Under the pieces are notes generated by a model. That model did not search any database. It was not told where the DNA came from and saw only the letters and a program-made list of their open reading frames with translations. From Halieaceae bacterium (lineage in GTDB: Bacteria; Pseudomonadota; Gammaproteobacteria; Pseudomonadales; Halieaceae), in assembly GCA_036351375.1 (NCBI GenBank), contig JAZBOY010000293.1, positions 214-64,213 on the forward strand: 64,000 bases of DNA. The letters run 5' to 3'. The translations under genes were made by a program, and so were the position numbers. Every line of letters starts with the position of its first letter. Position 1 is the stretch's first letter. Positions 14,397 to 30,593 of this stretch are shown here, one piece after another.

Positions 14397-14731
14397 TGCG
14401 TCCGGAGAAGAACTTGCCGGGTAGCTGATTGCCCGCAGGTCGGCACCGTGCCCCCATAGCTCAGGTGTCGGCCTTTTCCGCCCGGTCGGGTCCTCCCTGG
14501 GGCCCGTGCCGGGCTTTCTTATTGGCAGTATGTGTGCTCAGCCGGGCGCCAGCCTGCGCTAGACCTGTTTGACGCCCCTCCCGCCTTAGCCTCCTCCAGC
14601 TGTTGCATTCGCGACCATCACCAACCGCTGCAATCACAGCGCAACAGGATTGTCATCTTCTGCTGCTATGTTGCGTTGCTCTCCCGTTAACTCATCCGTC
14701 GGTTTACCCGGCCCAAAAAAAGGAAAATATC

Positions 14732-16459
14732 ATGGGTTACTGCTTTGAGCGTGTGAGTCAAATTACCCTCGCGAGCGTGATGGCCGCGTCTGCCCTGACT
14801 GCCCAGGCGGGCATCGAGCTGGAACTCCTCGGCACCTACGGCCAACCGGACCCGGCCGCCGCCTTTGATGAGAGCGCCGCCGAAATCGTTGCCTTCGACA
14901 AAAGAAGCCAGCGGCTTTTCGTCACCAACGGCAACGAAAAGGTGCTGGACATCATCAGCATCAGCGACCCCGCTTCACCGTCACTGGTGGGTTCGATCAA
15001 TGTGACGGACAACCCCGATTTCGGTGCCTTTGTGGGCGGTGGCGCCAATAGTGTGGCCGTATACAAGGGCCTTGTGGCAGCAGCCATCGAGGCTGATACC
15101 GTTACCGATGACGGTGCGGTGGCCTTCTTTGACACAGACGGCAACTTCCTCAGCCTTGCAATCGTTTGTGCCCTCCCAGATATGCTCACCTTTACGCCCG
15201 ACGGCTCCAAAGTGCTCGCGGCCTGCGAAGGAGAGCCGGATGAAGGCGTGGACCCGGAAGGCGGTGTCGCGATCATCGACGTAAAGCGGGATGGCGACAT
15301 CAGGCGCATCCGTATTGCCGATTTCAATGACTTTGATGACGACGTCGATACGCTCCGCGCCGCGGGCGTTCGCCTGTTCCCGGAAGTGGGAACGCCGCCG
15401 TTGGCTGAAGGAGAAATCAGCGTCAGCCAGGACGTCGAGCCCGAGTACATTGGTGTCGACAAGAAAGGCAAGACGGCCTACGTAACCCTACAGGAGGCCA
15501 ATGCCCTGGCTGTGGTCAATATTCGTCGCGGCGTGATCACTGATATTCTCCCGCTCGGCACCAAAGACCACAGTCTTGCAGGCAACGGCCTGGACCCCTC
15601 TGATCGCGACGGCGGCATTGCCATCGGCACCTGGCCGGTTCGAGGCCTGTACATGCCCGATGCTATTGACTGCTATACGCCAAAGGGCCGGGGCAAGGGT
15701 CGGGGCAAGAAGACCTTCTGTATTACCGCCAACGAGGGCGACGACCGCGGTGACGCCGACGAAGATGCACGCGGCGACGCCATTCGTTTCAAGGATATTG
15801 AAGACGTGGTGTCCTTTGGCCGTACTGGTCTCAATGCCAGCGCAGCGCTGGACGCCATGGATTTGGGCGCTGATGAAGCGCTGGGTCGGCTCAATATCTC
15901 CAGCATCGATGGCATCGATGAAAACGGCGACCTCGACCAGCTCTTTGCCTACGGCGCCCGATCCTTCTCTATCTGGGACGAACACGGCAACCTGGTCTTC
16001 GATAGCGGCGACATGCTGGAACAGATCACGTCTCTGGCATTCCCCGAATACTTCAACGCATCCAATGATGCCAATGAAGACGACGGCGCGCCCGCCATCG
16101 ACGATCGCAGCGACAATAAAGGCCCTGAGCCTGAGGCCGTTACCATTGCGAAAATCAGGGGCCAACACTACGCCTTCATCGGCCTGGAGCGCATTGGCGG
16201 CGTCGCGGTCTTTGACGTAAGCGACCCGAAAGATCCCGAGTTCGTGCTGTACGAAAACAACCGGGATTTCCTCGCCGACAACGAGGCTGTCGAAATGGGC
16301 CTTGCGGGCGACTTCGGGCCCGAGAGTATCCTGATCATCGAAAAGAAAGACAGCCCCCTCAGGGGAACAGCACTGATGGTTGTGGCCAACGAGGTCAGTG
16401 GCACCACCACTGTCTATGCGATCCACGAAGTCAGGGGCAGAGGCCGGGGCAAGAAGTAA
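14732..16459 (+). CDS. Choice-of-anchor-I-like secreted beta-propeller protein (phosphatase/phytase-like family)
   Basis: ATG 14732 follows AAAGGAAA and gives the signal peptide MGYCFERVSQITLASVMAASALTAQA. The repeated SAAEIVAFD..RLFVTNG / PEYIGVD..AYVTLQEANALAVV pattern is typical of this family. The upstream ORF extension to 14603 is rejected. Confidence 0.7.
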   Translation: MGYCFERVSQITLASVMAASALTAQAGIELELLGTYGQPDPAAAFDESAAEIVAFDKRSQRLFVTNGNEKVLDIISISDPASPSLVGSINVTDNPDFGAFVGGGANSVAVYKGLVAAAIEADTVTDDGAVAFFDTDGNFLSLAIVCALPDMLTFTPDGSKVLAACEGEPDEGVDPEGGVAIIDVKRDGDIRRIRIADFNDFDDDVDTLRAAGVRLFPEVGTPPLAEGEISVSQDVEPEYIGVDKKGKTAYVTLQEANALAVVNIRRGVITDILPLGTKDHSLAGNGLDPSDRDGGIAIGTWPVRGLYMPDAIDCYTPKGRGKGRGKKTFCITANEGDDRGDADEDARGDAIRFKDIEDVVSFGRTGLNASAALDAMDLGADEALGRLNISSIDGIDENGDLDQLFAYGARSFSIWDEHGNLVFDSGDMLEQITSLAFPEYFNASNDANEDDGAPAIDDRSDNKGPEPEAVTIAKIRGQHYAFIGLERIGGVAVFDVSDPKDPEFVLYENNRDFLADNEAVEMGLAGDFGPESILIIEKKDSPLRGTALMVVANEVSGTTTVYAIHEVRGRGRGKK

Positions 16460-17831: not shown

Positions 17832-18464
17832 ATGAAAAGCATCAAAACCGCCATCGCCGGCCTGGCTATCGCCCTGGCAGCGACCATGGCAACCGTCGCC
17901 CACGGGGCAGACCTGGAGGCCGGTAAGGCCAGCTACGGTACCTGCGCTGCCTGCCACGGCAGTGATGCGGCGGGCAATCCCGCGCTCAACGCGCCGGCAT
18001 TGGCCGGCCAGTCCGCCGACTACCTGGCGCGCCAGATCACCCACTACCAGGCCGGCATTCGCGGTGCCGACGCCCGCGACACCCTTGGCCGCCAGATGCA
18101 GGGCATGGCCGCCACCCTGACAAGCCCGGAGGCGGTTGCCAATGTGGCGGCTTATATTGCCAGCCTGCCCGCTGGTGACGGCGGCGAGGCGGGTGAGCAT
18201 GACAAGCGCAACGGCGAGGTGCAGTACAACGCCAACTGCGGCGCCTGCCACGGCGCCAATGCCCAGGGCAATCCCGCGTTGAACGCCCCCAATCTTGCCA
18301 CCCTGGATGAGGCCTACCTGCGCCGCCAGTACCAGAATTTCCAACAGGGCATCCGCGGCAGCCATCCGGAAGACAAGTACGGCCGCCAGATGCAAATGAT
18401 GTCCAGCATGCTGGGCTCAGATAAAGACCTCGACGACGTCATCGGCTTTATCCTCGCGCAATGA
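17832..18464 (+). CDS. Di-haem cytochrome c4-like protein
   Basis: Signal peptide. Two CxxCH motifs (CAACHG, CGACHG) sit in duplicated modules, each with a downstream GRQMQ-M Met-ligand context. Confidence 0.85.
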   Translation: MKSIKTAIAGLAIALAATMATVAHGADLEAGKASYGTCAACHGSDAAGNPALNAPALAGQSADYLARQITHYQAGIRGADARDTLGRQMQGMAATLTSPEAVANVAAYIASLPAGDGGEAGEHDKRNGEVQYNANCGACHGANAQGNPALNAPNLATLDEAYLRRQYQNFQQGIRGSHPEDKYGRQMQMMSSMLGSDKDLDDVIGFILAQ

Positions 18465-19762
18465 TCTCCCGTGGCAGCACAGTATTCCTGGCCGCAGCCT
18501 TCGCTCTCTGGGCGGGGCTGGCGGCGCTGGTGGCCTCTGCCTGGGAAGCGACCTCAGCCACCACGCCGCTGGCATCTGAGCCACGGGAGATGGCGAGCTG
18601 GGCGCCGGAAGATATCGTGCTGTCCAGCCACTGCCCGCCGGGCTTTGAGGACACCGGCGCCGAGGGCTGCAAGCTGCGCAACCTGTACCAGTTCTATGAC
18701 TCGCTGCAGGACCGCGGCGTCGGTGGCACCCAGACAGCTCTGCCGGCCCACCGCGACGGCTTCAGCCCGGAAGAAATCGACCTGGGCCGTTACCTGTTTT
18801 TTGATCCGGCCCTGTCCGGCGACGGCAGCCATTCCTGCGCCAGCTGTCATCACCCCGATATGGGCTTCAGCGACGGCCGCGGCCGCGCCATCGGCGTGGC
18901 GGGCCACCCGGTAAAGCGCTCTTCGCCGACACTGTGGAACGTGGCTTTCCTCGACCAGCTATTCTGGGACGTACGCGCCAGTTCGCTGGAAGAGCAGGCC
19001 CAGGGGCCACTCTACTCGCCGGAGGAGATGGGCAACACGCCGCAGCAGCTGCTGGCCACCCTCAACGGCAATGAGACATACCGACGCCTGTTCCGCCAGG
19101 CCTACCCTGAGGCTGAGCTCGACGAAATCAGCCTGGGCCAGGTGTACCGCGCGCTGGCGGCCTTCCAGACCTCGCTGATTTCCCTGAACAGCCGCTACGA
19201 CCGCTACGCCCACGGCTACCACGCCGCGCTCAACGAGCGCGAAGTCGCGGGCATGAACGTGTTCCGCTCGTTTGTGGCGCGCTGCGCTGAGTGCCACACG
19301 CCGCCGCTGTTTACCAACCAGCAGGTGGCGGTCATCGGTGCGCCCGAGCCTGAAGGCCTGCCGCTGGATGTCGGCGCCGAGGCGACCTGGGGTGCGGCCA
19401 AGATGAAGGGCGGCTTCAAGGTGCCGACCCTGCGCAATATCGAGAAAACCGCTCCCTACATGCACTCCGGCCGCTTTGCCACCCTGCGCGAGACGGTGGA
19501 GTTCTACACCAAGGGCCGCGGCCATGCGGTGCCCGAGGGTGTCGATATGCACATCCATTGGCATATCTGGGATCCGAAACTGACCGACGAGGAGCTCGAC
19601 CTGGTAGTGGATTTCCTCAAGACCCTTACAGACGAAACGTTTTCACCGCCTATCCCCGGGGTTGTTCCCTCGGGCCTGGCGCCGATCGGGGTATCACCAC
19701 TTGATAACAAGCCGCCGGCAACTGCAGACCGCGCGAGCACACACAAAGGAGCAGCATCATGA
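18461..19762 (+). CDS. Di-haem cytochrome c peroxidase family protein (CCP/MauG-like)
   Basis: CASCHHP and CAECHTPPLFTN haem motifs; GRYLFFDPALSGDGSHSCASCH is typical of the CCP/MauG family. ATGA overlaps with both neighbours. Confidence 0.88.
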   Translation: MISRGSTVFLAAAFALWAGLAALVASAWEATSATTPLASEPREMASWAPEDIVLSSHCPPGFEDTGAEGCKLRNLYQFYDSLQDRGVGGTQTALPAHRDGFSPEEIDLGRYLFFDPALSGDGSHSCASCHHPDMGFSDGRGRAIGVAGHPVKRSSPTLWNVAFLDQLFWDVRASSLEEQAQGPLYSPEEMGNTPQQLLATLNGNETYRRLFRQAYPEAELDEISLGQVYRALAAFQTSLISLNSRYDRYAHGYHAALNEREVAGMNVFRSFVARCAECHTPPLFTNQQVAVIGAPEPEGLPLDVGAEATWGAAKMKGGFKVPTLRNIEKTAPYMHSGRFATLRETVEFYTKGRGHAVPEGVDMHIHWHIWDPKLTDEELDLVVDFLKTLTDETFSPPIPGVVPSGLAPIGVSPLDNKPPATADRASTHKGAAS

Positions 19763-21312
19763 AAATGGGCAAACTGGTAGCCGTGGTACTGGTGCTGGTC
19801 GCATTCGCGGCCGGCATGCAGTTCGGCAAGAAGACCGGCGGTTCCGCGCCGGTGGTCACCAGCACCAGCGGGGGCGCGGCCTACAGCGGCAGCACGGCCG
19901 CTAAGGCCACGGATGAAGAGGTAGCGGCGGCCAAGGAGATGATGCTCTCTGGCAGCAGCAAGTTTGTAGCCGGCCCGCCTATGAGTGACGTGGTGGTGAC
20001 CGTCGAGGATGGCGAGTCCATCCAGGCCGCAGTACAGGCTGCCGAGCCGGGCACCACGATTCACGTGATGCCGGGCACCTACAGCGAAACTGTCTACATC
20101 GACAAGGACGGCATTCGCCTGATCGGCATTGTGGAAGGTTCCGAGCGCGCCACCATGGACGGCGGCGGCACCCTCAACGACGCCATCCTGTTCTCCGGCA
20201 ACAACATCGTGGTGGAGGGATTCCTGATCACGAAGTACAAGGGGAACGCCATCATGAGCCAGGCCGGCAACAACTACGAGATTCGCGACAACATCATCGT
20301 GGACACCGGCGTGTACGGCATCTTCCCGCAGCTCGGCAAGAACGGCGTGGTAGAGCATAACGTCATCTCCGGTATCGAAGACGCCGCCATCTACGTGGGC
20401 ATGAGCGACAACGTGCACGTGGCCTTCAACGAAGTGTTCGACAGCGTTGCCGGTATCGAAATCGAAAACAGCCGCCACGCCATCGTCGAGAGCAACTTCG
20501 TCTACAACAACACCGGCGGCGTGCTGGCGTTCATCACCCCGGGCCTGCCGATCAAGACCACCTACGACGTCATCATCCGCAACAACTGGATCTCCAATAA
20601 CAACACGCCCAACTTCGGCGCGCCAGGCTCCACCGTCGGCGGTATTCCGGCCGGTACCGGCATCATGGTGATGGCGGCGGACGACGTGGTAGTGGAAGGC
20701 AACATCATTACCAACAACAAGACCGTGGGCATCATGTCTGTGGATCACAACACCGCGGCGCAGCTCACCAATGTGACCGTGGACCCGGAGGCCGACCCCA
20801 ACTCCGACGGCCTCAAGATCCTCAACAACACCATGCACAACAACGGTTACGACACTATCGACGAGATCAAGGCATTGATGCTGGCCGACTTCAAGACCGG
20901 CAACCCGGACATTTTCGTGATTGGCCCCACCACCGATAGCTGCATCATCAACCGGCACCGCTACGTGCATTCCGGGGTGGATGAGTGGGCGGAGTGTGGC
21001 TTCACGAATACCTCGACCATCGCCAACTACCTGCTGCCGCCGGTGCCGCCCCGCGTCATCGAGCCGGGTGAGCGCGGCAAGATCGCCTACCTGGGCGTAT
21101 GCGCCGGTTGCCACACCTATGAAGGGCGAATGATCGGCCCGCCGGTGAAGATCATCCAGGCCCTGTACATGGACAACCCCCACGGCCTGGCCGAGTACAT
21201 CGCCGCACCGGTCAAGAAGCGCGAGGACTACCCGGAAATGCCGCCCCAGGATTACCTCGACGAGGACACCCGCCTGGCGGTCGCCGAGTACATGCTCTCC
21301 GTCAAGCGGTAG
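19759..21312 (+). CDS. Right-handed parallel beta-helix repeat protein fused to a C-terminal mono-haem cytochrome c domain
   Basis: N-terminal anchor or signal. Repeated NNxI..N / G-I-x-x turns (NNIVVEGFLIT, RDNIIVDTG, EHNVISG, ESNFVYNN, RNNWISNN, EGNIITNN). C-terminal CAGCH...RMIGPP. AAGGAG RBS. Confidence 0.75.
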   Translation: MKMGKLVAVVLVLVAFAAGMQFGKKTGGSAPVVTSTSGGAAYSGSTAAKATDEEVAAAKEMMLSGSSKFVAGPPMSDVVVTVEDGESIQAAVQAAEPGTTIHVMPGTYSETVYIDKDGIRLIGIVEGSERATMDGGGTLNDAILFSGNNIVVEGFLITKYKGNAIMSQAGNNYEIRDNIIVDTGVYGIFPQLGKNGVVEHNVISGIEDAAIYVGMSDNVHVAFNEVFDSVAGIEIENSRHAIVESNFVYNNTGGVLAFITPGLPIKTTYDVIIRNNWISNNNTPNFGAPGSTVGGIPAGTGIMVMAADDVVVEGNIITNNKTVGIMSVDHNTAAQLTNVTVDPEADPNSDGLKILNNTMHNNGYDTIDEIKALMLADFKTGNPDIFVIGPTTDSCIINRHRYVHSGVDEWAECGFTNTSTIANYLLPPVPPRVIEPGERGKIAYLGVCAGCHTYEGRMIGPPVKIIQALYMDNPHGLAEYIAAPVKKREDYPEMPPQDYLDEDTRLAVAEYMLSVKR

Positions 21313-21541: not shown

Positions 21542-23755
21542 ATGGCGTTGCGAACAGGACAGACACTGGGCTACAGAGCAATGAAACGAGCTATCCGCGA
21601 ACTGCGGCGGCGCGGGGTTATCCGCGCGGCGGGCTTGTACATTGCCCTCACGTGGCTGCTGCTGCAGATTGCCGACGTCGTATTTCCCGCCTTCGACCTC
21701 CCTGACAGTGCGCTGCGCTATATCCTGTTCGGTGCCGTGGTCGGCTTCCCGCTGGCGATGGTGTTCTCCTGGTTCTACGACATCTCCAGCGAGGGTATCC
21801 GTTCCGAGGAGGAGCTGCGCGAGGCCGGTGAAAGCGGCAAGGGCAGCTACCTGTCGGGGGCGACCATCGTTCTGCTGGTGGTGGCGTTGGGCGTTTCCCT
21901 GTACGCCAACTATGAGCAGGCCAGCGAGGATATTCCTGCCACGGAACACGAGATTATTTCGATCCTGGTTTCTGACTTTGTGAATGAAACCGGCGACCCG
22001 ATTTTTACCGGCTCGCTGGAGCCCGCCCTGGCCATCGGCATTGAGGCGGCCCCCTTCATAAGCTCCTACGCCAGGCATCAAGCCGCAATCATCGCCGGCC
22101 AGATTGCAGGCAGGGAAGAACTGAATGAAGAAACGGCGCGGCTGGTGTCCGTGCGAGAAGGCATTCGACTGGTACTTAGCGGTGTTATTCGACCCGACGG
22201 CGAGGGTTACTACTTCAGCCTGCGCGCGGTGGACCCCCGCGAGGGCGAAGTGATTGCGAATGCCAGCGCCAGCGCCGGTTCGAAAGTTGATGTACTGCCC
22301 GCCGTCGGCAAGCTCGCCATTCAGATTCGTGAAGAGCTGGGAGACGCCAGCCTGTCGGAAGACCCCGAAGCGAACGAAACCTTTACGGCGGCCTCGCTGG
22401 AGGCAGCCCAGTACTACACGATTGCCCAGAACTATAACCGCACGGAGCAGAATGAACTCGCCTCGGAGTACTACCAGAAAGCGATCGCGGAAGACCCGAA
22501 CTTTGGGCGCGCCTATTCCGGTTGGGCGCTCAGTGAGAGAAGGCTGGGTCGCAGCGAGCACGCGAAAGAGCTCTGGGAAAAAACCCTCACGCTGCTGGAT
22601 ACGATGACCGAGCGCGAACGGTACCGGACCCAGGGGGCATACTACCTGGCTGTCACCGGCAATTTCCGCAAAGCCATTGAGGCCTATGAGGAATTGATCA
22701 CGCGCTATCCCGCTGACAATGTCGGTCGCAACAACCTGGCGCTGGCCTACTTCTGGGATCGTCAGTTCGACCAGGCCCTGACGATTGGTGGTGAGCTGGT
22801 AGAGCTGTATCCCAATACGCCGGTCTACCGAAGCAACTACGCCCTCTACGCTATGTATGCGAGCGACTTCGACCTCGCTCGCAGCCAGGCCACTGCCCTG
22901 TTGGAGGCGGCGCCCGAGTTTTTCCTGGGCTACTTGCCCCTGGCCATCGCGGAACTCGCGCAGGGGAAGTACAAGGCGGCCGAGGAGGTCTACTCGCGCA
23001 TGGCGAAGCAGGGCAGCGAGGCAGAATCCGCCGCCCGCAGAGGGCTGGCAGACGTCGCCCTGTATCGAGGCGACTGGCCGCTGGCGCAGGCGCTATTGGA
23101 GGAGGGTATCCGCTTTGATGAGGGCATTGGCAATAACGCTTCTGCGCGGCGCAAACAGGTGGATCTGGCCTTGGCACTGTTCGAACAGGGGCGAGTGGAT
23201 GATGCAAGGGTGCAGCTCGAAGCTGCGATCGCCGGAAGCAGCGACCTGCGCCGCCTGTTGCCGGCGGCTCGCCTGTTTGTCCGCCTCGGTGACACAGAGC
23301 GCGCCGATGAACTGCGCGCCCTGCTGGATAGCGAACTGAGGGCCGGCAGCCGGGCCGCTGCAGATATCATTGCCGCTTACCTGGCGGAGGCTGACGGTGA
23401 TACGGCAACAGCAGTAGATCACCTCAACGCCTCGCTGGAGCATGTCGATACCTGGCTGGCGCGCTTCGAGTTGGGGCGCGTGTACGCCAATGCAGGTTAT
23501 TTTGTTGAGGCCCTCAGCGAACTTGAACGGGCTGAGGGCCGTCTCGGGGAGGCGGCTGCCCTGTTCCTGGATGAAGTTCCCACCTTTCACTACAGCGCAA
23601 CGCTGGACTATTGGCTCGGCTTGACCCGCCAGGAACTGGGGTTGGGCGAGACGGGTAAACGGGATCTGGAGGCGTTTTTGGCGTTGCGCGGTGCCAATGC
23701 CGGCAGCGCTGTGGTTGCAGATGCGCGCTCCCGGCTTGAAGTGAGTGGTAAGTAA
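21542..23755 (+). CDS. Membrane-anchored TPR-repeat protein
   Basis: N-terminus IRELRRRGVIRAAGLYIALTWLLLQIADVVFPAF plus a second TM helix, then many TPR-like repeats. An alternative start is ATG 21581. Confidence 0.75.
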   Translation: MALRTGQTLGYRAMKRAIRELRRRGVIRAAGLYIALTWLLLQIADVVFPAFDLPDSALRYILFGAVVGFPLAMVFSWFYDISSEGIRSEEELREAGESGKGSYLSGATIVLLVVALGVSLYANYEQASEDIPATEHEIISILVSDFVNETGDPIFTGSLEPALAIGIEAAPFISSYARHQAAIIAGQIAGREELNEETARLVSVREGIRLVLSGVIRPDGEGYYFSLRAVDPREGEVIANASASAGSKVDVLPAVGKLAIQIREELGDASLSEDPEANETFTAASLEAAQYYTIAQNYNRTEQNELASEYYQKAIAEDPNFGRAYSGWALSERRLGRSEHAKELWEKTLTLLDTMTERERYRTQGAYYLAVTGNFRKAIEAYEELITRYPADNVGRNNLALAYFWDRQFDQALTIGGELVELYPNTPVYRSNYALYAMYASDFDLARSQATALLEAAPEFFLGYLPLAIAELAQGKYKAAEEVYSRMAKQGSEAESAARRGLADVALYRGDWPLAQALLEEGIRFDEGIGNNASARRKQVDLALALFEQGRVDDARVQLEAAIAGSSDLRRLLPAARLFVRLGDTERADELRALLDSELRAGSRAAADIIAAYLAEADGDTATAVDHLNASLEHVDTWLARFELGRVYANAGYFVEALSELERAEGRLGEAAALFLDEVPTFHYSATLDYWLGLTRQELGLGETGKRDLEAFLALRGANAGSAVVADARSRLEVSGK

Positions 23756-23918: not shown

Positions 23919-26900
23919 ATGTATCTCGTTCGAGTTGTGCCGCTGCTGGTGGGCGCGTTAATCCTGCTCGCATCCAATTCACCGGTCAGCCTGGCGCAGG
24001 ATGCGCCACTCTCCATCGGCCCGAATATCAATATGGTGTCGGGTACCCAATGGCCGGAGGGCGATCCCTTCCTGCGGCAACAGAACGAACCCTCCCTGGC
24101 GTTTTCCAGCCGCAACAAGCTGCACATGCTGGCCGGCGCCAATGACTACCGTACGGTGGATGTGCCCGGCGACTTCGAAGCCGGCGCCACCGGCGATTCC
24201 TGGCTCAGCTATTTCTGGTCTACCAACGGTGGCGGCACCTGGAAGTCCACGCTGATTCCCTGCTACCCCCAGGACACCACCTCGGATTGTTCGACCAACC
24301 CCCTGAGGGGTTTTGCTGCCGGTGCCGACCCGGTAGTGCGCGCCGGTGCCAATGGCATGTTCTATTACGCGGGCATCGCCTTCGAGCGCAGCGAGAATCC
24401 GAGGAGCCAGATATTCGTCTCGCGCTTTATCGACCTCAACAATGACGAGGGCGGCGACCCGATCCGCTACATCGATACTGTGCAGGTCGATCTCGACGAA
24501 ACCGGTGATCGCTTCCTCGACAAGGTCTGGGTTGCCGTCGATATCCCTCGAGGCAGTGCGACCGAGACTTTCAGCGTTACCCAGAGCAATGGCGAGACGG
24601 TCAGCCAGACAGTCAGCTGCGGCAATATTTACGTGGCCTATGCCGCGCTGACCGGAGACGGTGCCACCCTGCGCTCGGAAATCATGCTCAGCACTTCTGC
24701 GGACTGCGGCAGCACCTGGTCTACGCCCCAACCGATCAGTGAGCCGGACACGCTCAACCAGGGCGCAAACATTGCCATCAACCCGAGCTCTGGCCCGGGT
24801 GGTGGCGGCGTGCATGTTGGTTGGCGGCGATTCGACACCGTGGAAGCCTTCCTGGGCACCCCGGCGGTGTCCTGCGCCAAGCCGCTGAAGGATTGGCGAC
24901 GCAAAAAGAAGTCGCAGGTGGCGGTGGAGTGGCCGGTAGATACGGTGGATATCGGCGACCTGCGACTGACCCGGGATGAGGCCCTGGACCTGTTGGCGCA
25001 GAGGCCCGGGGACAACGATCAGCCCGAGTCCAACAAGTCGGTCAGGCTGGCGCAATACCTGGTGGCGTCCAAGCTGAATCTCATCTCCGGCGGTGGCCAG
25101 GCGTCTGATACTTTCGACCCGGCTGAATGGACGCGCACACTGGTCGGGCTGGTGGATGAAGTGGATGACTTCTTCCGGGAGAATCCGCTGCTCATTGTTG
25201 AACCAGCCAAAAAGAGCAGGAAAAGCAAGAAGAGCCGGAAGAGTAAAAAGAGCAAGAAGGACGACTGGGACTACGGGGACAAGTGGGACGAGTTCTACGG
25301 CCAGGCAGTTTATGTCGGCAGCGACCTCGACCGTGATGAGCGTCGGCAGGCCAATGCCCTGCGCCGCGATCTCCGGCGGAACTACCTCGGTTCGGAAGAC
25401 TGTGTCGCCACTGCCGGCACCGATCCCATCACCACCGGCTCCACCAACGCCATGGTGGCGACAAGCTCCGGCGATGGCGGGGCGAGCTGGGCAGCACCGG
25501 TAACGGTGGCCGAAATTCGCACCTTCGACCAGGGCGGTACCAACTTCTCTTTCCGTACCACGGCCTATCCCACGCTGGCTGTAGATAAGACCGGCCGGGT
25601 CTACATGGCCTACGCGGCTCGCGGGTTTGCTACCCAGCGCCCGGATGAGGAATCCGGTGATGCGCGCATCGTTTTGTCGGTCTCCAGCGATGGTGGTTCC
25701 ACCTGGCAGGCGCCTTACCCGATTGATGACGACCCCGAGATGCCGGGCCACCAGTTCAAGCCTTCGCTACTCTTTGCGGGCGGCCGGCTGGTCGTAGTGT
25801 TCTACGACCTGCGCGCCGACGTGTCGGGCCTTTTCGAACGCTTCGTGTACGACGTGCCCGAACCCGATCGACTGCGCCACACCTTGGATGTGCGAGCAGC
25901 CACTGCCAACGTGCTGGCGGCGCCGCTGATGCCGCAGTTCACGGTTTACGATGTCACTGACCGCAGGGACTCCCAGCAGACTTCTCGCTATGCCTTCATC
26001 ACCACGGGCAACGGCATACCGATAGAAACCGTGCAGCTACAGTACATGGTGCCCAACCTGCCTACCCACTCGGGCGGCACCCAGCCGTTTATCGGCGACT
26101 ATGTGGACGTGGCCACCAAGACCATTCTCAAGGAAGGTGACGGCTGGCGCTTTGCCACCGAGCCTGGCGATGTGGACGTTTACCAGGCGGTGTGGACCGA
26201 CAATCGTGATATATCGCCGCCGCCGGACGGTGACTGGACCCGCTACCAACCGCTCAATCTCGACAGCGGCGGTGGCGGCAGCGTCAGTATATTTGACGGC
26301 TCCCCAATTCCTGCCTGTGAACCCGGCGTCACCAGCCAGTACACGGGCACCCGTAACCAGAATATCTACACCGCCGCGCTCTCTGAAGGGCTGATCGTCG
26401 CGGCACCGGGCGGCAACCGGCCCCTGGGCATTGCACCCGGTGCAACGGAGCCGCTGGAGCGCGCCTACGTGGTATATGTGCAAAATGTCACTGCCGTGGA
26501 GCGCAGCTACCGGCTCACAGTCAGCGAACCGGTGGAGGGGTCGGCGTCCTTCGAGCAGTTTGATTCGCTCACCAGCGTCGATGTCTCGGTGCCGCCATAC
26601 TCGAGTACCGTGGAAACCGTGTTCGCCAGCTCTCCCAACCCTGACGAGCGTATCGTCGTGCAGGTGCAGGAGCTCGACCCGACTGGCAGTGTACTGCCGG
26701 GTGGCCTGTTCTCAACGGTACTGTTGAATGCCGATCCGACGGCACCGCCGCCCAGTAATGCGGACCTACTGACGGCGGAAACGCACAATCCGACGATCCT
26801 GAATCCGACGATCCTGAATCCGACGATACTCAACCCGACGATCCTGAACCCGACGATTCTCAACCCGACGATCCTGAATACCGCGGTGTTCAACCCGACA

Positions 26901-29900
26901 ATCCTGAATCCGACGATCCTGAACACCGCGGTGTTCAACCCGACGATTCTGAACCCGACGATTCTGAATCCGACGATTCTGAATCCGACGATCCTGAACC
27001 CGACCATCCTGAATCCGACGATTCTGAATCCGACCATTCTGAACCCGACGATCCTCAATCAGGCGGTCTACAACCCGACGATTCTCAATCCGACGATCCT
27101 GAATCCGACGATTCTCAATAGCGCCATCACCGACCCCTTGCAGGAATCCGCAGAAATTACCTTCGCGGTGCAGAACGATGGCAGCGCCACCAGTTCCTAC
27201 GACATCAACCTCGCGTCCAGCCAGGGCAGCGATGACGGCTTCACCTACCAGGTGCTGGTCTATCGCCTCAACAAGACCCCGGTGGCCGACGGTTGCAGTC
27301 TCGAGGAAGAGGCCAGCCAGGAGCTGATCGCCAACGTTGTGGATCCAGGCAACCAGCTGGACCCGGCGGGTGGCGACGGCGAGACCTCGTTCTACATTGA
27401 GCCCGGGGAAGAAGTATTCGTCACCATCCGCGTCCTGCCGGATACCACCCAGCCCGACCCCGGCGACCCGGGTGAGCTCGACAACAACACCCTGGATCTC
27501 TCGATCGCGGTGGTGCCGCAGGCCGTTAATTCCGAAGACGCCGAGATGGGAGAAACCGAGCCCACTGGCACTTCGACGACCACACCTCCAGTACCCCCCG
27601 TGCTTATCGACACGATTGAAATCCCCGACGGCGAAGTCGGCCAGCCGTATAGCGTGGCGTTGGCAGCCAGCGGCGGCGTTGCGCCGCTGAACTGGAGCCT
27701 GGCCCTGGGTGCGGAACTGCTGGACGGCCTGAGCCTGTCGCCTGCCGGCGTGCTCAGCGGTACTCCGGCGGAACCCGGCGGCCTGGCAGTGCCGGTGCGC
27801 GTGACGGATGGCATTCAGGTGGCGCAGGCCAGCTTCTTTGCCACCATCGAACCGCCGCCCTTGTTCATCACGACCACCACCTTGCCAGCCGGCCAGGTCG
27901 GTCAGGCCTACCCGGCCACGACGCTGGCTTCCTCTGGCGGCTTTGGTGATATCAGCTGGGGCGTGGTGAGCGGCAGCTTGCCGCCCGGCCTGACCCTTGC
28001 GGTGGACGGCGGTCTGTCCGGCACGCCCTCTGCCGATGGCTCCTTCAACTTTACCGTGGAGGCCACCGATGGCTTCCAGGCGGTGCAACAGAGCCTTGCG
28101 GTGGATATCGCCCCGGAGAACGTGATCGGCGGTGACGGCGGTGGTCCGTTCACCCTGACCTGCCCCGCCGGCACCATCGGCAAGGGGCTACGCGGCCGCG
28201 CGCTCCAGGATATCGACACCATTGAGCTGATCTGTGCCGAGGTGGTCAGCGTGACCAATGGCTTCCCCGAGCTTGGGGCCGAGGTAAGTGCCGGCGATCT
28301 CGGCAACACCGGTGGCCTCGATTTCGGTGAAGATCTTGTGTGTCCGGACTTCACCGTCCTCACGGGCATTCGCGCCAACGAGCGAACCCTGGGCAGCGGT
28401 AACGTCATCATCGACCAGCTGGGCGTGACCTGTATCGACAGCGGTGGTGACCTGGTGTTCTCAACGCTGGTGGCCGACAACGACGTCGGCGGCCCGGTCG
28501 CCTCCGTGGACTGCCCGGTTGACGAGTTTGTCAGCGGTGTCTCCGGGCGCGTGGGTCTGCTGCTGGACGCGATCGGTGTGAGCTGCGCGCCGGTGAGTGG
28601 CGAGTTTGTCGCGGCGGATATCGCTCCCAAGTATTACGGCGTCGCGGTGGCCAACCCTGGCTTCCTGTCTCGTACTGGCCAGGTGCTGGAATTCAGCCAG
28701 GCGCCGCGCACCGGCACTGCGTTTACGTTCTCCGAGTCGGTCGGTGAGCCCACGAACCGACCCTTCACCTGGGATGTTATGGACGGTGAGCTGGTGCTGA
28801 CCTATGGCGTGCTTCCGGGAGTGTCTTTCTTTGATACCCTTGATGCATCCACGGCTACCCCCGACCAGGCTGCGCTCATCGCGGCGCAGCCCGGATTCAT
28901 CGGCCAGATAGAAGGCCGCCAGAGATTCATCGAGACCGTGTATACCCTGGTGTCCGAGACCGACCTGCTCGGTGTGGCCCGTGAGGATACGCAGATCATT
29001 GAGTATCTCCCGATACCGGTGCCGGTCTCTGCCGAGTATCCGGATGGCAGCCTGCAATTGCCTCCACGGTTTGTGACCAGCAATGCCGCCGGCACGCTGC
29101 GCGACGCGGCGACGGCGCCGGTGATCCCGCTGTCGGATACGTGCAATACGGAGCCATGTGTACCCGGCACCTGGGGAGGTACCGCGCGCTATCTGCCGGG
29201 CGTGAGGCAGTTTGATAACCAGCCCTACCCGGTCACCAACTATGGTGAGGTGCTGAACTTCGCCACCGGCGGCCAGCAGACGGTGAGCGGGGATATCTCC
29301 AACCTCGCGGCCACCTGGACAGTCAGTGGCGGTAGCCTGGTTGTTGATTACGGCGACGGCTGGACCCAGACGGTGACGCCCGTCGGTGTGAACGGTCTCG
29401 AATACGGCATGTTCAGTGAATACACCGACGGTGTGGATCGCTACGCCAGTTATGATATCTGGGTGAAGCGTGACCCAGGCTTCAACTTTACGGAGGCCTA
29501 CCTCACCAGTGCCAACGACAGCTACTGGAACGCCGACATAAACACCTGGATACCGGGCAGGCTAAACCCCGACGGATCACGGCCATTTAATGAACGGTTT
29601 GGCTGGGAGCTTGACGGTGGTACCGATCCCAACTCCGGATTCAATCGTTCAGTGATCTTCGCTGGTGCCAACGCAGACCAACTGACGCTGTTCCTGCGAC
29701 CCAATGAATGGACCATCGAGCCCTCCGGCCGCGTCCAGATCGATCGCTTCCTGGATACCCAGTTCAATACCTACGATCGATTCTGGTACCCGATTGCCAA
29801 CACCATCGTGGACGGAGATCGGCAGTTCTACGTGATTGAACTCGAGCGCCGCGACAGCGGGCTGCTGTTCCCGGCGCGCATGAACATCCAGCGGGAGTTG

Positions 29901-30593
29901 TTCGATGACAACAGCGCTTACGATGCCATCCAGGTCCAGACTCCGGTCATCGAAAGTGATGCCCTGATTACCGGCGTTTCACCGGATCCGGCAGCCGCCG
30001 GTTTCGGCCAGTTGCTGGTGGTATCCGGTCAGAACCTGCCACTGGGCAACCAGCCCAACCAGGGGGTACAGGACAACCCGGTGGTTACCGTGACCCAGTT
30101 TGGCGTTGAGTACCCGGGCTTCAGCTTCGTCTTCGACGCCAACAACCAGCTGATACGCTTGCCGGTTGATGGGTTGGTGCCGGGCCCGGCGGAGCTGCAG
30201 CTGTCTGAGCCCGGCGCCGCCGAACGCTCGCCGGCCTTCCCGATAACAATCGCCCCGGTGCCTGCTGCCCCCGACCTGGTCGAGGCCAGGACGGCGCCCT
30301 TCGTGGGGCCTGTTACTACCACGATCATTCCCGGTGCACGGATTACGTTGCTGGCGCGCAATACCGACACAGCAGGCGTCGAGGCGATATTCCGCTGGGG
30401 TGGCAACACGGTGACACAGCCCTTGATATCCACCACGGTGCCCTTCGGCCCCACCGGTGGCCTGCTGCATGAGTTCCTGGTGCCCCCGGGCATTCCGGAG
30501 AGTACCGATGTGTCGGTCACCCTGCGCATCACCGTGAATGGCGAGCAGAGTGCCGAGAGCAACATGCTGATCCTGTCCGTGCCGATTCTCTAA
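23919..30593 (+). CDS. Giant (2224 aa) secreted multidomain protein: BNR/sialidase-like propeller, NPTIL repeat array, Ig-like (He_PIG-type) repeats, jacalin-like modules, C-terminal IPT/TIG-like domains
   Basis: Signal peptide MYLVRVVPLLVGALILLASNSPVSLAQ. Four Asp-box motifs (STNGGGTW, SADCGSTW, SGDGGASW, SSDGGSTW). Two LP.G.VGQ.Y...L.ASGG...W....G.LP.GL.L...G.LSGTP repeats. GGDGGGPF lectin-like start. ITGVSPDP... IPT-like end. Confidence 0.85.
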   Translation: MYLVRVVPLLVGALILLASNSPVSLAQDAPLSIGPNINMVSGTQWPEGDPFLRQQNEPSLAFSSRNKLHMLAGANDYRTVDVPGDFEAGATGDSWLSYFWSTNGGGTWKSTLIPCYPQDTTSDCSTNPLRGFAAGADPVVRAGANGMFYYAGIAFERSENPRSQIFVSRFIDLNNDEGGDPIRYIDTVQVDLDETGDRFLDKVWVAVDIPRGSATETFSVTQSNGETVSQTVSCGNIYVAYAALTGDGATLRSEIMLSTSADCGSTWSTPQPISEPDTLNQGANIAINPSSGPGGGGVHVGWRRFDTVEAFLGTPAVSCAKPLKDWRRKKKSQVAVEWPVDTVDIGDLRLTRDEALDLLAQRPGDNDQPESNKSVRLAQYLVASKLNLISGGGQASDTFDPAEWTRTLVGLVDEVDDFFRENPLLIVEPAKKSRKSKKSRKSKKSKKDDWDYGDKWDEFYGQAVYVGSDLDRDERRQANALRRDLRRNYLGSEDCVATAGTDPITTGSTNAMVATSSGDGGASWAAPVTVAEIRTFDQGGTNFSFRTTAYPTLAVDKTGRVYMAYAARGFATQRPDEESGDARIVLSVSSDGGSTWQAPYPIDDDPEMPGHQFKPSLLFAGGRLVVVFYDLRADVSGLFERFVYDVPEPDRLRHTLDVRAATANVLAAPLMPQFTVYDVTDRRDSQQTSRYAFITTGNGIPIETVQLQYMVPNLPTHSGGTQPFIGDYVDVATKTILKEGDGWRFATEPGDVDVYQAVWTDNRDISPPPDGDWTRYQPLNLDSGGGGSVSIFDGSPIPACEPGVTSQYTGTRNQNIYTAALSEGLIVAAPGGNRPLGIAPGATEPLERAYVVYVQNVTAVERSYRLTVSEPVEGSASFEQFDSLTSVDVSVPPYSSTVETVFASSPNPDERIVVQVQELDPTGSVLPGGLFSTVLLNADPTAPPPSNADLLTAETHNPTILNPTILNPTILNPTILNPTILNPTILNTAVFNPTILNPTILNTAVFNPTILNPTILNPTILNPTILNPTILNPTILNPTILNPTILNQAVYNPTILNPTILNPTILNSAITDPLQESAEITFAVQNDGSATSSYDINLASSQGSDDGFTYQVLVYRLNKTPVADGCSLEEEASQELIANVVDPGNQLDPAGGDGETSFYIEPGEEVFVTIRVLPDTTQPDPGDPGELDNNTLDLSIAVVPQAVNSEDAEMGETEPTGTSTTTPPVPPVLIDTIEIPDGEVGQPYSVALAASGGVAPLNWSLALGAELLDGLSLSPAGVLSGTPAEPGGLAVPVRVTDGIQVAQASFFATIEPPPLFITTTTLPAGQVGQAYPATTLASSGGFGDISWGVVSGSLPPGLTLAVDGGLSGTPSADGSFNFTVEATDGFQAVQQSLAVDIAPENVIGGDGGGPFTLTCPAGTIGKGLRGRALQDIDTIELICAEVVSVTNGFPELGAEVSAGDLGNTGGLDFGEDLVCPDFTVLTGIRANERTLGSGNVIIDQLGVTCIDSGGDLVFSTLVADNDVGGPVASVDCPVDEFVSGVSGRVGLLLDAIGVSCAPVSGEFVAADIAPKYYGVAVANPGFLSRTGQVLEFSQAPRTGTAFTFSESVGEPTNRPFTWDVMDGELVLTYGVLPGVSFFDTLDASTATPDQAALIAAQPGFIGQIEGRQRFIETVYTLVSETDLLGVAREDTQIIEYLPIPVPVSAEYPDGSLQLPPRFVTSNAAGTLRDAATAPVIPLSDTCNTEPCVPGTWGGTARYLPGVRQFDNQPYPVTNYGEVLNFATGGQQTVSGDISNLAATWTVSGGSLVVDYGDGWTQTVTPVGVNGLEYGMFSEYTDGVDRYASYDIWVKRDPGFNFTEAYLTSANDSYWNADINTWIPGRLNPDGSRPFNERFGWELDGGTDPNSGFNRSVIFAGANADQLTLFLRPNEWTIEPSGRVQIDRFLDTQFNTYDRFWYPIANTIVDGDRQFYVIELERRDSGLLFPARMNIQRELFDDNSAYDAIQVQTPVIESDALITGVSPDPAAAGFGQLLVVSGQNLPLGNQPNQGVQDNPVVTVTQFGVEYPGFSFVFDANNQLIRLPVDGLVPGPAELQLSEPGAAERSPAFPITIAPVPAAPDLVEARTAPFVGPVTTTIIPGARITLLARNTDTAGVEAIFRWGGNTVTQPLISTTVPFGPTGGLLHEFLVPPGIPESTDVSVTLRITVNGEQSAESNMLILSVPIL
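26787..27132 (+). repeat. In-frame 15-bp tandem array, 23 units, encoding (NPTIL)n
   Basis: 19 NPTIL units plus NTAVF x2, NQAVY and NSAIT. The units differ only at synonymous third positions. Confidence 0.95.

What the first reader, a model, noticed from the sequence alone, without database searches (positions are those of the whole stretch)
26787..27132. 23-unit NPTIL array: a conserved, non-canonical five-residue repeat inside a giant exoprotein
This is an in-frame 15-bp tandem array covering aa 957-1071. It has 19 exact NPTIL units interrupted by NTAVF (x2) and NQAVY, and it ends with NSAIT. Every difference among the 19 NPTIL units is a synonymous third-position change (aat/aac, acg/aca/acc, atc/att/ata, ctg/ctc). 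The peptide is therefore under purifying selection and the array is not a fresh slippage expansion. The unit has Pro in every repeat and does not fit the classical pentapeptide-repeat consensus A(D/N)LXX. A distinct solenoid or rigid stalk between the N-terminal propeller and the Ig-like modules is plausible.
Basis: seen in the sequence. Interest (0 to 1): 0.7.

Follow-up and report, generated by a model that had tools for sequence, protein, structure and literature searches.

The report
Conserved Asn-Pro five-residue repeat module
A run of 23 five-residue units (mostly Asn-Pro-Thr-Ile-Leu) in a 2,224-residue exported bacterial protein is this gene's copy of an undescribed repeat found in every member of a large, uncharacterised protein family, kept uniform by selection, but its fold and function remain unknown.

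Summary
Window 26787-27131 (+) encodes 23 in-frame pentapeptides (19 NPTIL, 2 NTAVF, NQAVY, NSAIT), aa 957-1071 of ORF 23919-30593.

It is not a private oddity. All 143 family members in which both flanking Ig-like domains were detected have an N-P-x-[I/V]-x array at this position. The family has 485 loci in species-representative genomes, mostly Acidobacteriota, Halieaceae and Woeseiaceae.

Units are near-identical within a protein but differ between proteins (33 dominant unit types). Synonymous sites between units are near saturation (median pS 0.70, pN 0.12), so the peptide is under purifying selection.

The window's array is one of the most recently homogenised. An NPTIL variant that is rare in the closest relative has replaced ancestral NPTV[L/F] units.

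It is not a canonical pentapeptide-repeat protein: no PF00805 or PF13599 match, and Pro in every unit. Two AlphaFold2 runs fold both flanks well but leave the array at pLDDT 26-39. The pTM values suggest the flanks pack together, so "solenoid or rigid stalk" is unsupported.

My best reading (confidence 0.4) is a periodic chain of Asn-Pro turns that loops out and orders only on packing or binding. An adjacent membrane TPR protein, a Ser/Thr kinase in most lineages, is a conserved partner. This is a new variant of a known kind.

The parts
26787..27131 (+). NPx[I/V]x pentapeptide array, 23 units (19 NPTIL; Pro-less units NTAVF at units 7 and 10, NQAVY at 19, terminal cap NSAIT at 23), aa 957-1071
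   Evidence: Homologous arrays are present in all 143 family members where both flanking domains were detected.
23919..30593 (+). ORF of 2224 aa that carries the array. It is a family member with a conserved N-terminal region plus array module and a lineage-variable C-terminal part.
23919..23996 (+). Sec-type signal peptide (MYLVRVVPLLVGALILLASNSPVSLA|QD), aa 1-26
   Evidence: Read directly from the translation. No signal-peptide predictor was run.
24000..26435 (+). Conserved N-terminal region, about 810 aa, with Asp-box-like motifs (e.g. STNGGGTW) and sub-threshold BNR_2/BNR_3 similarity. It is highly conserved across the family.
   Evidence: BNR_2 scores 27.1 bits against a cut-off of 31.4; many invariant columns. 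BNR_2 matches in 5 of 19 members.
26436..26768 (+). Ig-like beta-sandwich domain A immediately upstream of the array (aa 840-950)
   Evidence: AlphaFold2 pLDDT 83-95, all beta. Present in 119 of the 120 best homologues. Fold search finds only generic Ig-like matches.
27132..27563 (+). Beta-sandwich domain B immediately downstream (aa 1072-1215), beginning with the CARDB-like strand motif EITFAVQNDGSAT. In many homologues one of its loops carries a second short array of the same unit type; the window's copy does not.
21542..23755 (+). Conserved neighbour: a 737-aa protein with three N-terminal hydrophobic helices and a TPR region that is probably periplasmic
   Evidence: Pfam TPR hits; sequence. 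A homologue lies next to the giant gene in 50 of 79 loci. In 37 of those 50 the partner ORF has a Ser/Thr kinase catalytic-loop motif; one locus shows Pkinase plus TPR by Pfam.

Best explanation
The array is this gene's copy of a family-defining module: beta-sandwich A, then 10-30 N-P-x-[I/V]-x units, then beta-sandwich B. The module occurs in Sec-exported multidomain proteins with a conserved N-terminal Asp-box/BNR-like region and lineage-variable C-terminal binding domains.

Shown:
- The module is universal in the family.
- Asn1, Pro2 and Ile/Val4 are conserved.
- Positions 3 and 5 are uniform within a protein but differ between proteins.
- This uniformity is kept by purifying selection on the peptide, not by ongoing DNA homogenisation.
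- The module is not a canonical pentapeptide-repeat protein.
- AlphaFold2 does not fold it as a monomer.

Inferred:
- Each unit forms an Asn-Pro (Asx-Pro) type-I beta-turn, as in NPNA repeats, followed by a hydrophobic anchor residue.
- The two flanking domains pack against each other, so the array is a long periodic excursion pinned at both ends rather than a spacer.
- The array becomes ordered only by packing against itself, against the matching mini-array in the domain-B loop, or against a partner.
- It then presents a regular, lineage-specific surface made of positions 3 and 5, which serves as a multivalent interaction element.

In the window's lineage one NPTIL variant recently replaced most ancestral NPTV[L/F] units. 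Three older Pro-less Val+aromatic units survive at positions where relatives also have an aromatic residue.
For: Universality:
- 119 of the 120 best homologues have both flanks with an array between them.
- The inter-domain segment is 69-226 aa in all 143 members; none lacks the array.
- There are 485 loci in GTDB species representatives.

Composition over 115 proteins: Asn1 is fixed by the array detector (units were defined as period-5 Asn), Pro2 89%, Ile/Val/Leu4 97%. Position 3 is A/D/N/T/G/S and position 5 is variable. There are 33 dominant unit types, and a median of 76% of units equal the dominant one.

Selection:
- Within-array median pS is 0.70 and pN 0.12.
- Several arrays have pN = 0 with pS 0.6-0.78.

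Units are not interchangeable:
- The position-5 L/F/M pattern (...MLLFFLLM...) is conserved in register among proteins P0004-P0025.
- An aromatic residue five units from the end of the array is conserved in the window's closest relatives.

Mini-array:
- A mini-array in a domain-B loop matches the main array's unit type across at least 11 unit types.
- Its DNA is no closer to the main units than those units are to each other.

Local conformation precedent: N-P-N-A forms type-I turns stabilised by the Asn side chain, in equilibrium with disorder (PMC5715787).

AlphaFold2:
- Array pLDDT is 26-39 in the window's module and 28-35 in an NPDIS-type homologue, with flanks at 75-95.
- pTM is 0.57 in both runs. 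I estimate about 0.35-0.37 if the flanks were placed independently and about 0.54-0.57 if placed as one body.

Window history.
Against: - No structure is available. Low pLDDT is equally compatible with plain disorder.
- The A-B packing is inferred from pTM alone. No coordinates or PAE could be inspected.
- Arrays of the NPAIL/NPAIF type are very hydrophobic, which would fit a buried solenoid core.
- Unit number varies by 1-2 between close relatives, which a precisely packed structure might not tolerate.
- No interaction partner has been demonstrated. Nothing ties the TPR neighbour to the array rather than to another part of the protein.
- The matching unit type of the main array and mini-array could come from old gene conversion rather than from a functional requirement.
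Confidence: 0.4

Rival explanations
1. The array is an autonomous beta-solenoid, a Pro-containing variant of the pentapeptide-repeat quadrilateral beta-helix. Ile/Val4 and Pro2 fill the core in place of Leu/Phe and Ala. Asn1 sits in the turn. Positions 3 and 5 lie on the faces. The solenoid acts as a short rigid block about 28 Å (2.8 nm) long.
For: - The period is 5, with one conserved hydrophobic residue per unit and a conserved Pro-less cap unit.
- A family profile weakly matches the pentapeptide-repeat protein Np275/Np276 (2j8k, E = 5.9e-4, 20.7 bits).
- The NPAVF-type array scores 23 bits against a cut-off of 27 on Pentapeptide_3.
- JGI names some members 'YjbI with pentapeptide repeats'.
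- The unit-specific L/F/M pattern is conserved.
- Acidobacterial units read as P-[D/N]-I-[S/T]-N fit 3 of the 5 positions of the published consensus (PMC8145042), with Ile a conservative stand-in for Leu/Phe at a fourth.
- Hydrophobic NPAIL/NPAIF arrays are hard to imagine exposed to solvent.
- From textbook residue volumes, Ile/Val plus Pro roughly equals Leu/Phe plus Ala.
Against: - AlphaFold2 failed twice on two different unit types (pLDDT 26-39, no strands), although the flanks folded. Failure on a canonical pentapeptide repeat would be unexpected.
- No PF00805 or PF13599 hit for any of 8 array types at E <= 10.
- Pro at i-2 would remove the amide donor of the canonical turn hydrogen bond (established knowledge of the fold).
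- Unit variation shows no lag-3 or lag-4 periodicity, only a weak lag-7 signal.
- The register that matches 2j8k puts Ser/Thr/Glu at the core position in most of the family.
- Unit number varies by single units between relatives.
Confidence: 0.25
2. The array is a passive, flexible or semi-rigid linker, like the NANP region of circumsporozoite protein or the Pro-rich linkers of glycoside hydrolases. It only separates the N-terminal region from the C-terminal modules.
For: - AlphaFold2 gives low pLDDT and no secondary structure.
- The Asn-Pro turn motif resembles NPNA, whose repeat region is described as disordered (PMC5715787, PMC6179375).
- Unit number varies between 8 and 30.
- The C-terminal modules are variable.
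Against: - Linkers are not normally conserved motif-for-motif across phyla, and do not keep unit-specific residue patterns in register.
- Fixed spacing of irregular units ([n] NAEVY [6] NVxVL [7] cap) is kept among divergent proteins.
- NPAIL/NPAIF arrays are too hydrophobic for an exposed linker.
- A mini-array of the same unit type inside a loop of domain B has no linker role.
- pTM suggests the flanking domains touch each other (my inference).
Confidence: 0.25
3. The array is a functionless low-complexity product of recent replication slippage in this one gene.
For: The window's array is comparatively homogeneous at the DNA level (pS 0.476; CCG in 19 of 19 units).
Against: - The array is present at the same site in every family member, across several phyla.
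- Only synonymous differences occur between NPTIL units.
- Synonymous sites are saturated with pN close to 0 in many relatives.
Confidence: 0.03

Closest known systems
Pentapeptide repeat proteins (Pfam PF00805 and relatives; Rfr fold, e.g. Np275/Np276, MfpA, Qnr)
   Same: Tandem five-residue period with far more than 8 contiguous units and one hydrophobic residue per unit. There is a weak profile match to 2j8k (E = 5.9e-4). Some database annotations call family members YjbI-like.
   Different: Pro occurs in every unit, but at no position of the published consensus (PMC8145042). The family-conserved residues are Asn, Pro and Ile/Val, not Ala, Asp/Asn and Leu/Phe. No Pfam pentapeptide model matches. 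AlphaFold2 does not produce a beta-helix.
NANP/NPNA repeats of Plasmodium falciparum circumsporozoite protein
   Same: Asn-Pro recurs at a fixed short period. NPNA forms Asn-stabilised type-I beta-turns in equilibrium with disorder (PMC5715787). In that protein the repeat number also differs between strains, and minor variant units (NVDP) are interspersed. Some family units are literally NPN[I/V]x.
   Different: The period is 4, not 5. CSP units have no conserved hydrophobic residue. CSP is a eukaryotic surface antigen with no flanking Ig-like domains. No homology is implied.
Pentapeptide_2 (PF01469, mycobacterial PPE-MPTR xNxGx repeats)
   Same: Period 5 with an invariant Asn. The NPGIY-type arrays of some family members score 66 bits, above the 26.4 cut-off.
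   Different: The window's NPTIL array and most other unit types do not match. There is no PPE domain. The match depends on Gly at position 3.
Nematode MLT-10-like (Moulting_cycle, PF04870) proline-rich pentapeptide repeats, [S/N]-P-x-[V/I]-L
   Same: Nearly the same unit pattern (Pro at 2, Val/Ile at 4, Leu at 5). These proteins dominate the non-family hits when the array is searched against 1.84 billion representatives.
   Different: Position 1 is mostly Ser, not Asn. The units are heterogeneous. The proteins are eukaryotic cuticle or moulting proteins with a different flanking domain. This is convergent similarity, not homology.
Extensin_1 (PF02095), plant proline-rich cell-wall repeats
   Same: This is the only Pfam model that touches the array. 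It is listed in the precomputed Pfam annotations for most homologues and matched all 19 members scanned.
   Different: The score is 32-54 bits against a curated cut-off of 105. It is a periodicity and composition match only.

Membership tests
Pentapeptide repeat proteins (PF00805 / Rfr fold) | At least eight contiguous five-residue repeats | tested here: met
   23 contiguous units in the window; 8-30 units in homologues.
Pentapeptide repeat proteins (PF00805 / Rfr fold) | Units fit the consensus A(D/N)LXX, updated to (A/C/S/V/T/L/I)(D/N/S/K/E/I/R)(L/F)(S/T/R/E/Q/K/V/D)(G/D/E/N/R/Q/K) | tested here: not met
   Consensus taken from PMC8145042. The best register for the window, T-I-L-N-P, fits 3 of 5 positions. 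Pro is allowed at no position. In that register most of the family has Ser, Thr, Ala or Glu at the Leu/Phe core position.
Pentapeptide repeat proteins (PF00805 / Rfr fold) | Match to the Pfam models Pentapeptide, Pentapeptide_3 or Pentapeptide_4 above the curated cut-off | tested here: not met
   No such hit for the whole protein or the array at E <= 1, or for 8 array types at E <= 10. The only hit is Pentapeptide_3 at 23 bits (cut-off 27) for one NPAVF-type homologue.
Pentapeptide repeat proteins (PF00805 / Rfr fold) | [quoted passage not shown] | tested here: inconclusive
   AlphaFold2 gives pLDDT 26-39 and no strands in two runs. Unit variation shows no lag-4 periodicity. There is a weak profile hit to 2j8k. 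No experimental structure exists.
Pentapeptide_2 (PF01469, MPTR-type xNxGx) | Match to PF01469 above the cut-off | tested here: not met
   No hit for the window's array. Only the NPGIY-type homologue matches, at 66 bits.
Extensin_1 (PF02095) | Match above the curated cut-off of 105 bits | tested here: not met
   32-38 bits for the window; 23-54 bits for homologues.
Asx-Pro turn repeats of the NPNA (circumsporozoite) kind | Asn-Pro at turn positions i and i+1, with a small or polar residue at i+2 | tested here: met
   Pro2 is 89% over arrays detected as period-5 Asn runs, so Asn1 is fixed by construction. Position 3 is A/D/N/T/G/S in 97% of units. The window has N-P-T.
Asx-Pro turn repeats of the NPNA (circumsporozoite) kind | Four-residue period; the type-I turn actually populated | not testable with these tools
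   The period here is 5, so that part is not met. The turn conformation needs NMR or crystallography. The AlphaFold2 model is not confident there.
The family itself: BNR-like N-terminal region, sandwich A, NPx[I/V]x array, sandwich B | All four parts present, in this order | tested here: met
   The window's ORF aligns over aa 1-1215 with homologues at 38-63% identity. The flanks are detected in 119 of 120 homologues. The syntenic orthologue L001 is 70% identical over aa 1-2224.

The most novel reading that the evidence does not exclude
The uniform NPx[I/V]x array, together with the matching mini-array in domain B, is the multivalent ligand read by the periplasmic TPR domain of the conserved adjacent membrane protein, which is a Hanks-type Ser/Thr kinase in most lineages. 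Positions 3 and 5 would be a per-lineage recognition code, which would explain selection for identical units. Binding would order the array and cluster or gate the kinase. This would be a previously undescribed kind of extracytoplasmic signalling pair built on a new repeat fold.
Probability: 0.12. Interest if true: 0.8.

Novelty: new variant of a known kind. Interest (0 to 1): 0.55.

Why it matters
- **Undescribed repeat class.** It has no Pfam or NCBIfam model of its own. Pfam lists it only as a sub-threshold 'Extensin_1' match, and some JGI records call the proteins YjbI-like pentapeptide proteins. No paper in the searchable library contains any of six of its unit strings.
- **Widespread family.** It marks a large family of giant exported proteins in Acidobacteriota and in marine and sediment Gammaproteobacteria. 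No member has a known function.
- **Unusual evolution.** Up to 16 identical peptide units are kept with saturated synonymous sites. Different proteins use different units, and a second array in the next domain uses the same unit. This points to a requirement for unit uniformity, which ordinary solenoids and linkers do not show.
- **Fold still open.** The fold is unresolved after two AlphaFold2 attempts, so the module is a good target for structure determination.
- **Annotation.** A dedicated model for the module would correct many database labels.
- **Testable lead.** The conserved TPR or TPR-kinase neighbour gives a concrete route to function.

Tried and rejected
- **Pfam and NCBIfam scans.** The protein, the array and 8 homologous array types were scanned. 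No pentapeptide-family membership was found; Extensin_1 is sub-threshold; NCBIfam gave nothing.
- **PDB by sequence and by profile.** Only a weak hit to 2j8k.
- **AlphaFold2, twice.** One run on the window's module with 25 sequences and one on an NPDIS-type homologue with 11 sequences. The array was not folded either time. Both prediction jobs are now spent, so the N-terminal region was not modelled.
- **Foldseek of the model against PDB.** Only generic Ig-like sandwiches for the flanks.
- **Search for 3- or 4-unit super-periodicity.** This would indicate a triangular or quadrilateral solenoid. None was found; there is a weak lag-7 signal that is phylogenetically non-independent.
- **N-glycosylation idea.** N-[I/V]-[S/T] sequons occur in NPN[I/V][S/T] units but are absent from most unit types, including the window's. 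Rejected as a family-wide explanation.
- **Ca-binding (RTX-like) idea.** Rejected because many arrays, including NPTIL and NPAIL, have no acidic residue.
- **Membrane-spanning hydrophobic helix idea.** Rejected because most of the family has hydrophilic or acidic units.
- **Literature searches.** Searches for the unit strings and for 'NPxIx' found nothing.
- **Exact look-up.** Neither the window's giant protein nor its TPR neighbour is in the 15-billion-protein collection.
- **First genome scan.** The scan with alignment A1 failed for lack of a conserved stretch. It was repeated successfully with A2.
- **Array-only search of 1.84 billion representatives.** Outside the family it mostly returned convergent eukaryotic period-5 Pro repeats.
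- **MauG and NosD neighbours.** They are syntenic only in close relatives and are not part of the system.

Full report
**1. The observation**

Window 26787-27131 on the + strand consists of 23 head-to-tail 15-nt units. They are in frame in ORF 23919-30593 (2224 aa) and encode aa 957-1071. The order is NPTIL x6, NTAVF, NPTIL x2, NTAVF, NPTIL x8, NQAVY, NPTIL x3, NSAIT. Tandem Repeats Finder independently reports a period-15 array with 21.7 copies.

The 19 NPTIL units fall into 11 DNA variants, and every difference is a synonymous third-position change. At least six independent mutations are needed. The chance that all six are synonymous is about 6e-4. The only correction is that the stated end coordinate is one base too far.

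**2. The array is a family hallmark**

The ORF has more than 1,166 homologues at E <= 1e-5. A scan of one genome per species found 485 related loci. Most are in Acidobacteriota (Terriglobia, Aminicenantes, Thermoanaerobaculia, Vicinamibacterales). Others are in Halieaceae/Cellvibrionales, Woeseiaceae and Pseudohongiella, with a few in Verrucomicrobia, Phycisphaerae and Alphaproteobacteria. Nearly all of the 79 loci kept are metagenome-assembled genomes. The closest is a syntenic orthologue in a Cellvibrionales genome (L001, 70% identity over aa 1-2224).

The array's position is constant:
- In 119 of the 120 best homologues the same two beta-sandwich domains flank a period-5 Asn array.
- In all 143 members where both flanks were detected, the segment between them is 69-226 aa. 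None lacks the array.

Composition over 115 proteins. Arrays were detected as runs of Asn at period 5, so Asn at position 1 is fixed by construction.

| Position | Residues |
|---|---|
| 1 | Asn (by the detector's definition) |
| 2 | Pro 89% |
| 3 | A/D/N/T/G/S |
| 4 | Ile 68%, Val 26%, Leu 3% |
| 5 | variable |

Unit number per protein ranges from 8 to 30, with a median of 18.

The last unit always lacks Pro. It leads straight into the first strand of the downstream domain, a CARDB-like '...TFxVxNxGNxT' motif.

The N-terminal 840 aa are highly conserved and have Asp-box-like motifs, but only sub-threshold BNR_2/BNR_3 similarity. The C-terminal parts vary by lineage: He_PIG, Kelch, beta-helix, LamG, cadherin and others. 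The protein starts with a Sec-type signal peptide, read.

**3. Evolutionary regime**

Within a protein the units are nearly identical. A median of 76% of units equal the dominant unit. Between proteins the dominant unit differs, with 33 types seen, including NPAIL, NPAVL, NPDIS, NPAIF, NPNIV, NPGIY and NPDIL.

DNA from 71 arrays shows this uniformity is not recent homogenisation:
- Between units of one array, median pS is 0.70, which is near saturation, and median pN is 0.12.
- Several arrays have pN = 0 at pS 0.6-0.78.

Units are also not interchangeable. In proteins P0004-P0025 the position-5 pattern ...MLLFFLLM... is kept in register. In the window's own subgroup an aromatic residue sits five units from the end of the array in all five sequences. 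In NPDIS-type proteins the Pro-less units keep a fixed spacing: [n] NAEVY [6] NVxVL [7] cap.

About half of the arrays have a second mini-array of 2-4 units, 71-86 residues into domain B. It uses the same unit as the main array across at least 11 unit types. Its DNA is no closer to the main units than those units are to each other. The window's protein lacks this mini-array.

**4. The window's array in particular**

It is one of the youngest in the family.
- Its pS of 0.476 is the third lowest of 71.
- Mean pairwise difference between NPTIL units is 1.80 nt, against 2.84 expected at the gene's codon usage.
- Pro is CCG in 19 of 19 units (P = 3e-6). Thr is ACG in 16 of 19 units although ACC is the gene's preferred codon (P = 2e-7).

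The orthologue L001 has 24 NPTV[L/F] units whose Val codons are mostly GTG or GTA. It has a single NPTIL unit, and that unit's DNA (AAC CCG ACG ATC CTG) equals a window haplotype. GTG cannot become an Ile codon in one step, since the intermediate ATG encodes Met. Amplification of a pre-existing NPTIL unit is therefore the parsimonious history.

The three internal odd units keep Val (GTG or GTC) and an aromatic residue. They lie where relatives have NPTVF. Their first nine bases (AAT/AAC ACC GCG) equal those of L001's terminal cap unit.

So 'purifying selection' is right, and 'not a fresh expansion' is only relatively right.

**5. What it is not**

- No Pfam pentapeptide model matches the protein or the array at E <= 1, nor eight array types at E <= 10. 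The exceptions are a sub-threshold Pentapeptide_3 hit for an NPAVF type and a Pentapeptide_2 (xNxGx) hit for the NPGIY type.
- NCBIfam finds nothing.
- Extensin_1 is far below its cut-off.
- The published pentapeptide consensus allows Pro at no position (PMC8145042).
- A family profile hits one solved pentapeptide protein, Np275/Np276, at E = 5.9e-4. That register (A-[I/V]-[L/F]-N-P) works only for the gammaproteobacterial units.
- Searching the array alone against 1.84 billion representatives gives 2,447 hits. Outside the family these are mainly nematode MLT-10-like proteins with [S/N]Px[V/I]L repeats and other eukaryotic period-5 repeats. This is convergent similarity.

**6. Structure**

AlphaFold2 was run on aa 840-1215 with 25 aligned homologues. 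Both flanks fold as beta-sandwiches (pLDDT 83-95), but the array scores 26-39 with no secondary structure. A second run on an NPDIS-type homologue gave the same picture: flanks 75-88, array 28-35.

Both runs give pTM 0.57. From the pTM formula I estimate about 0.35-0.37 if the flanks were placed independently and 0.54-0.57 if placed as one body. The model therefore seems to pack A against B, which would pin both ends of the array close together. This is an inference, because no coordinates or PAE were available.

Fold search of the flanks gives only generic Ig-like matches. Unit variation shows no 3- or 4-unit periodicity.

The sequence N-P-[small or polar]-[I/V] fits the classic Asx-Pro type-I turn. 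The same local motif in NPNA repeats forms Asn-stabilised turns in equilibrium with disorder (PMC5715787).

**7. Context**

The gene immediately upstream (21542-23755) encodes a protein with three N-terminal hydrophobic helices and a long TPR region. A homologue lies next to the giant gene in 50 of 79 loci, in several orientations. In 37 of those 50 the partner ORF also carries a Ser/Thr kinase catalytic-loop motif. One locus was confirmed as Pkinase plus TPR by Pfam. The MauG-like and NosD-like genes further upstream are syntenic only in close relatives.

**8. Interpretation**

The best-supported reading is a selection-maintained periodic element in which each unit forms an Asn-Pro turn plus a hydrophobic anchor. 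It projects as an excursion from a packed pair of Ig-like domains. It becomes ordered by packing against itself, the mini-array or a partner, and displays a lineage-specific surface made of positions 3 and 5 (confidence 0.4).

Rivals:
- An autonomous Pro-containing beta-helix (0.25).
- A passive linker (0.25).
- Functionless slippage (0.03).

The most novel reading not excluded is that the array is the multivalent ligand of the neighbouring TPR or TPR-kinase protein (probability about 0.12).

**9. Verdict**

This is a real, conserved and undescribed repeat module. It is a new variant of the pentapeptide/turn-repeat kind and not a member of PF00805. Its selection argument is supported, and its structural guess is unsupported. 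Interest: 0.55.

Noticed in passing
window 21542-23755 (+); partner ORFs in L008-L079 and L080 16312-19278: The TPR neighbour of the giant gene is conserved in 50 of 79 loci. In 37 of those it is fused to an N-terminal Hanks-type Ser/Thr kinase. The gammaproteobacterial copies, including the window's, have only transmembrane helices at the N-terminus. This suggests the giant protein is coupled to transmembrane signalling.
   Followed up: partly
homologues, 71-86 aa after the main array (e.g. L018, L027, L059); absent in window 27132-27563: A loop of the downstream beta-sandwich carries a mini-array of 2-4 units. It always uses the same unit type as the main array (NPNIV, NPDIL, NPDLE, NPELE, NPGIT, NPSIQ, NPDIA, NPAIE and others), with synonymous divergence as high as within the main array.
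   Followed up: yes
window 26877-26891, 26922-26936; L001 13289-13303: The window's internal Pro-less units NTAVF begin with AAT/AAC ACC GCG. These are the same nine bases as the terminal cap unit (NTALD) of the orthologue. They may be chimeras of a cap unit and an ancestral NPTVF unit.
   Followed up: partly
window about 25208-25291 (aa about 430-458): A Lys-rich low-complexity insert (KKSRKSKKSRKSKKSKKDDWD) lies inside the conserved N-terminal region. Tandem Repeats Finder detects it as period-9 and period-18 repeats. Whether relatives have it was not examined.
   Followed up: no
window 18461-19762 and 19759-21312 (+): A MauG-like di-haem cytochrome c peroxidase gene overlaps by 4 nt with a gene for a NosD-like beta-helix protein that has a C-terminal cytochrome c domain. 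Both are 90-97% identical in L001 and L003 and are not conserved next to the giant gene elsewhere.
   Followed up: partly
window 23919-30593 versus neighbours; L001: The giant protein (70% identity) and the TPR partner (79%) have diverged much more from the L001 orthologues than the flanking genes have (MauG 90%, NosD-cytochrome c 95%, AcrB 90%). The pair is evolving faster than its surroundings.
   Followed up: no
L019 9065-15379 and 16011-23183; L080 3830-9808 and 10001-15784; contigs CAZPBY01 (L027, L029, L044, L045): Many Acidobacteriota genomes carry several paralogues, often in tandem. Each has its own array, and the arrays within one genome are of the same or very similar unit type.
   Followed up: partly
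P0126, P0127, P0133, P0141, P0145, P0148, P0163: Nematode Moulting_cycle (MLT-10-like) proteins contain long [S/N]-P-x-[V/I]-L pentapeptide arrays that cross-match the bacterial array at E down to about 1e-53. This is a convergent eukaryotic counterpart. I found no structural information on it.
   Followed up: partly
window 14603-16459 (+): An ORF with a full-length 'choice-of-anchor I' domain (354 bits). It is unrelated to the finding.
   Followed up: no
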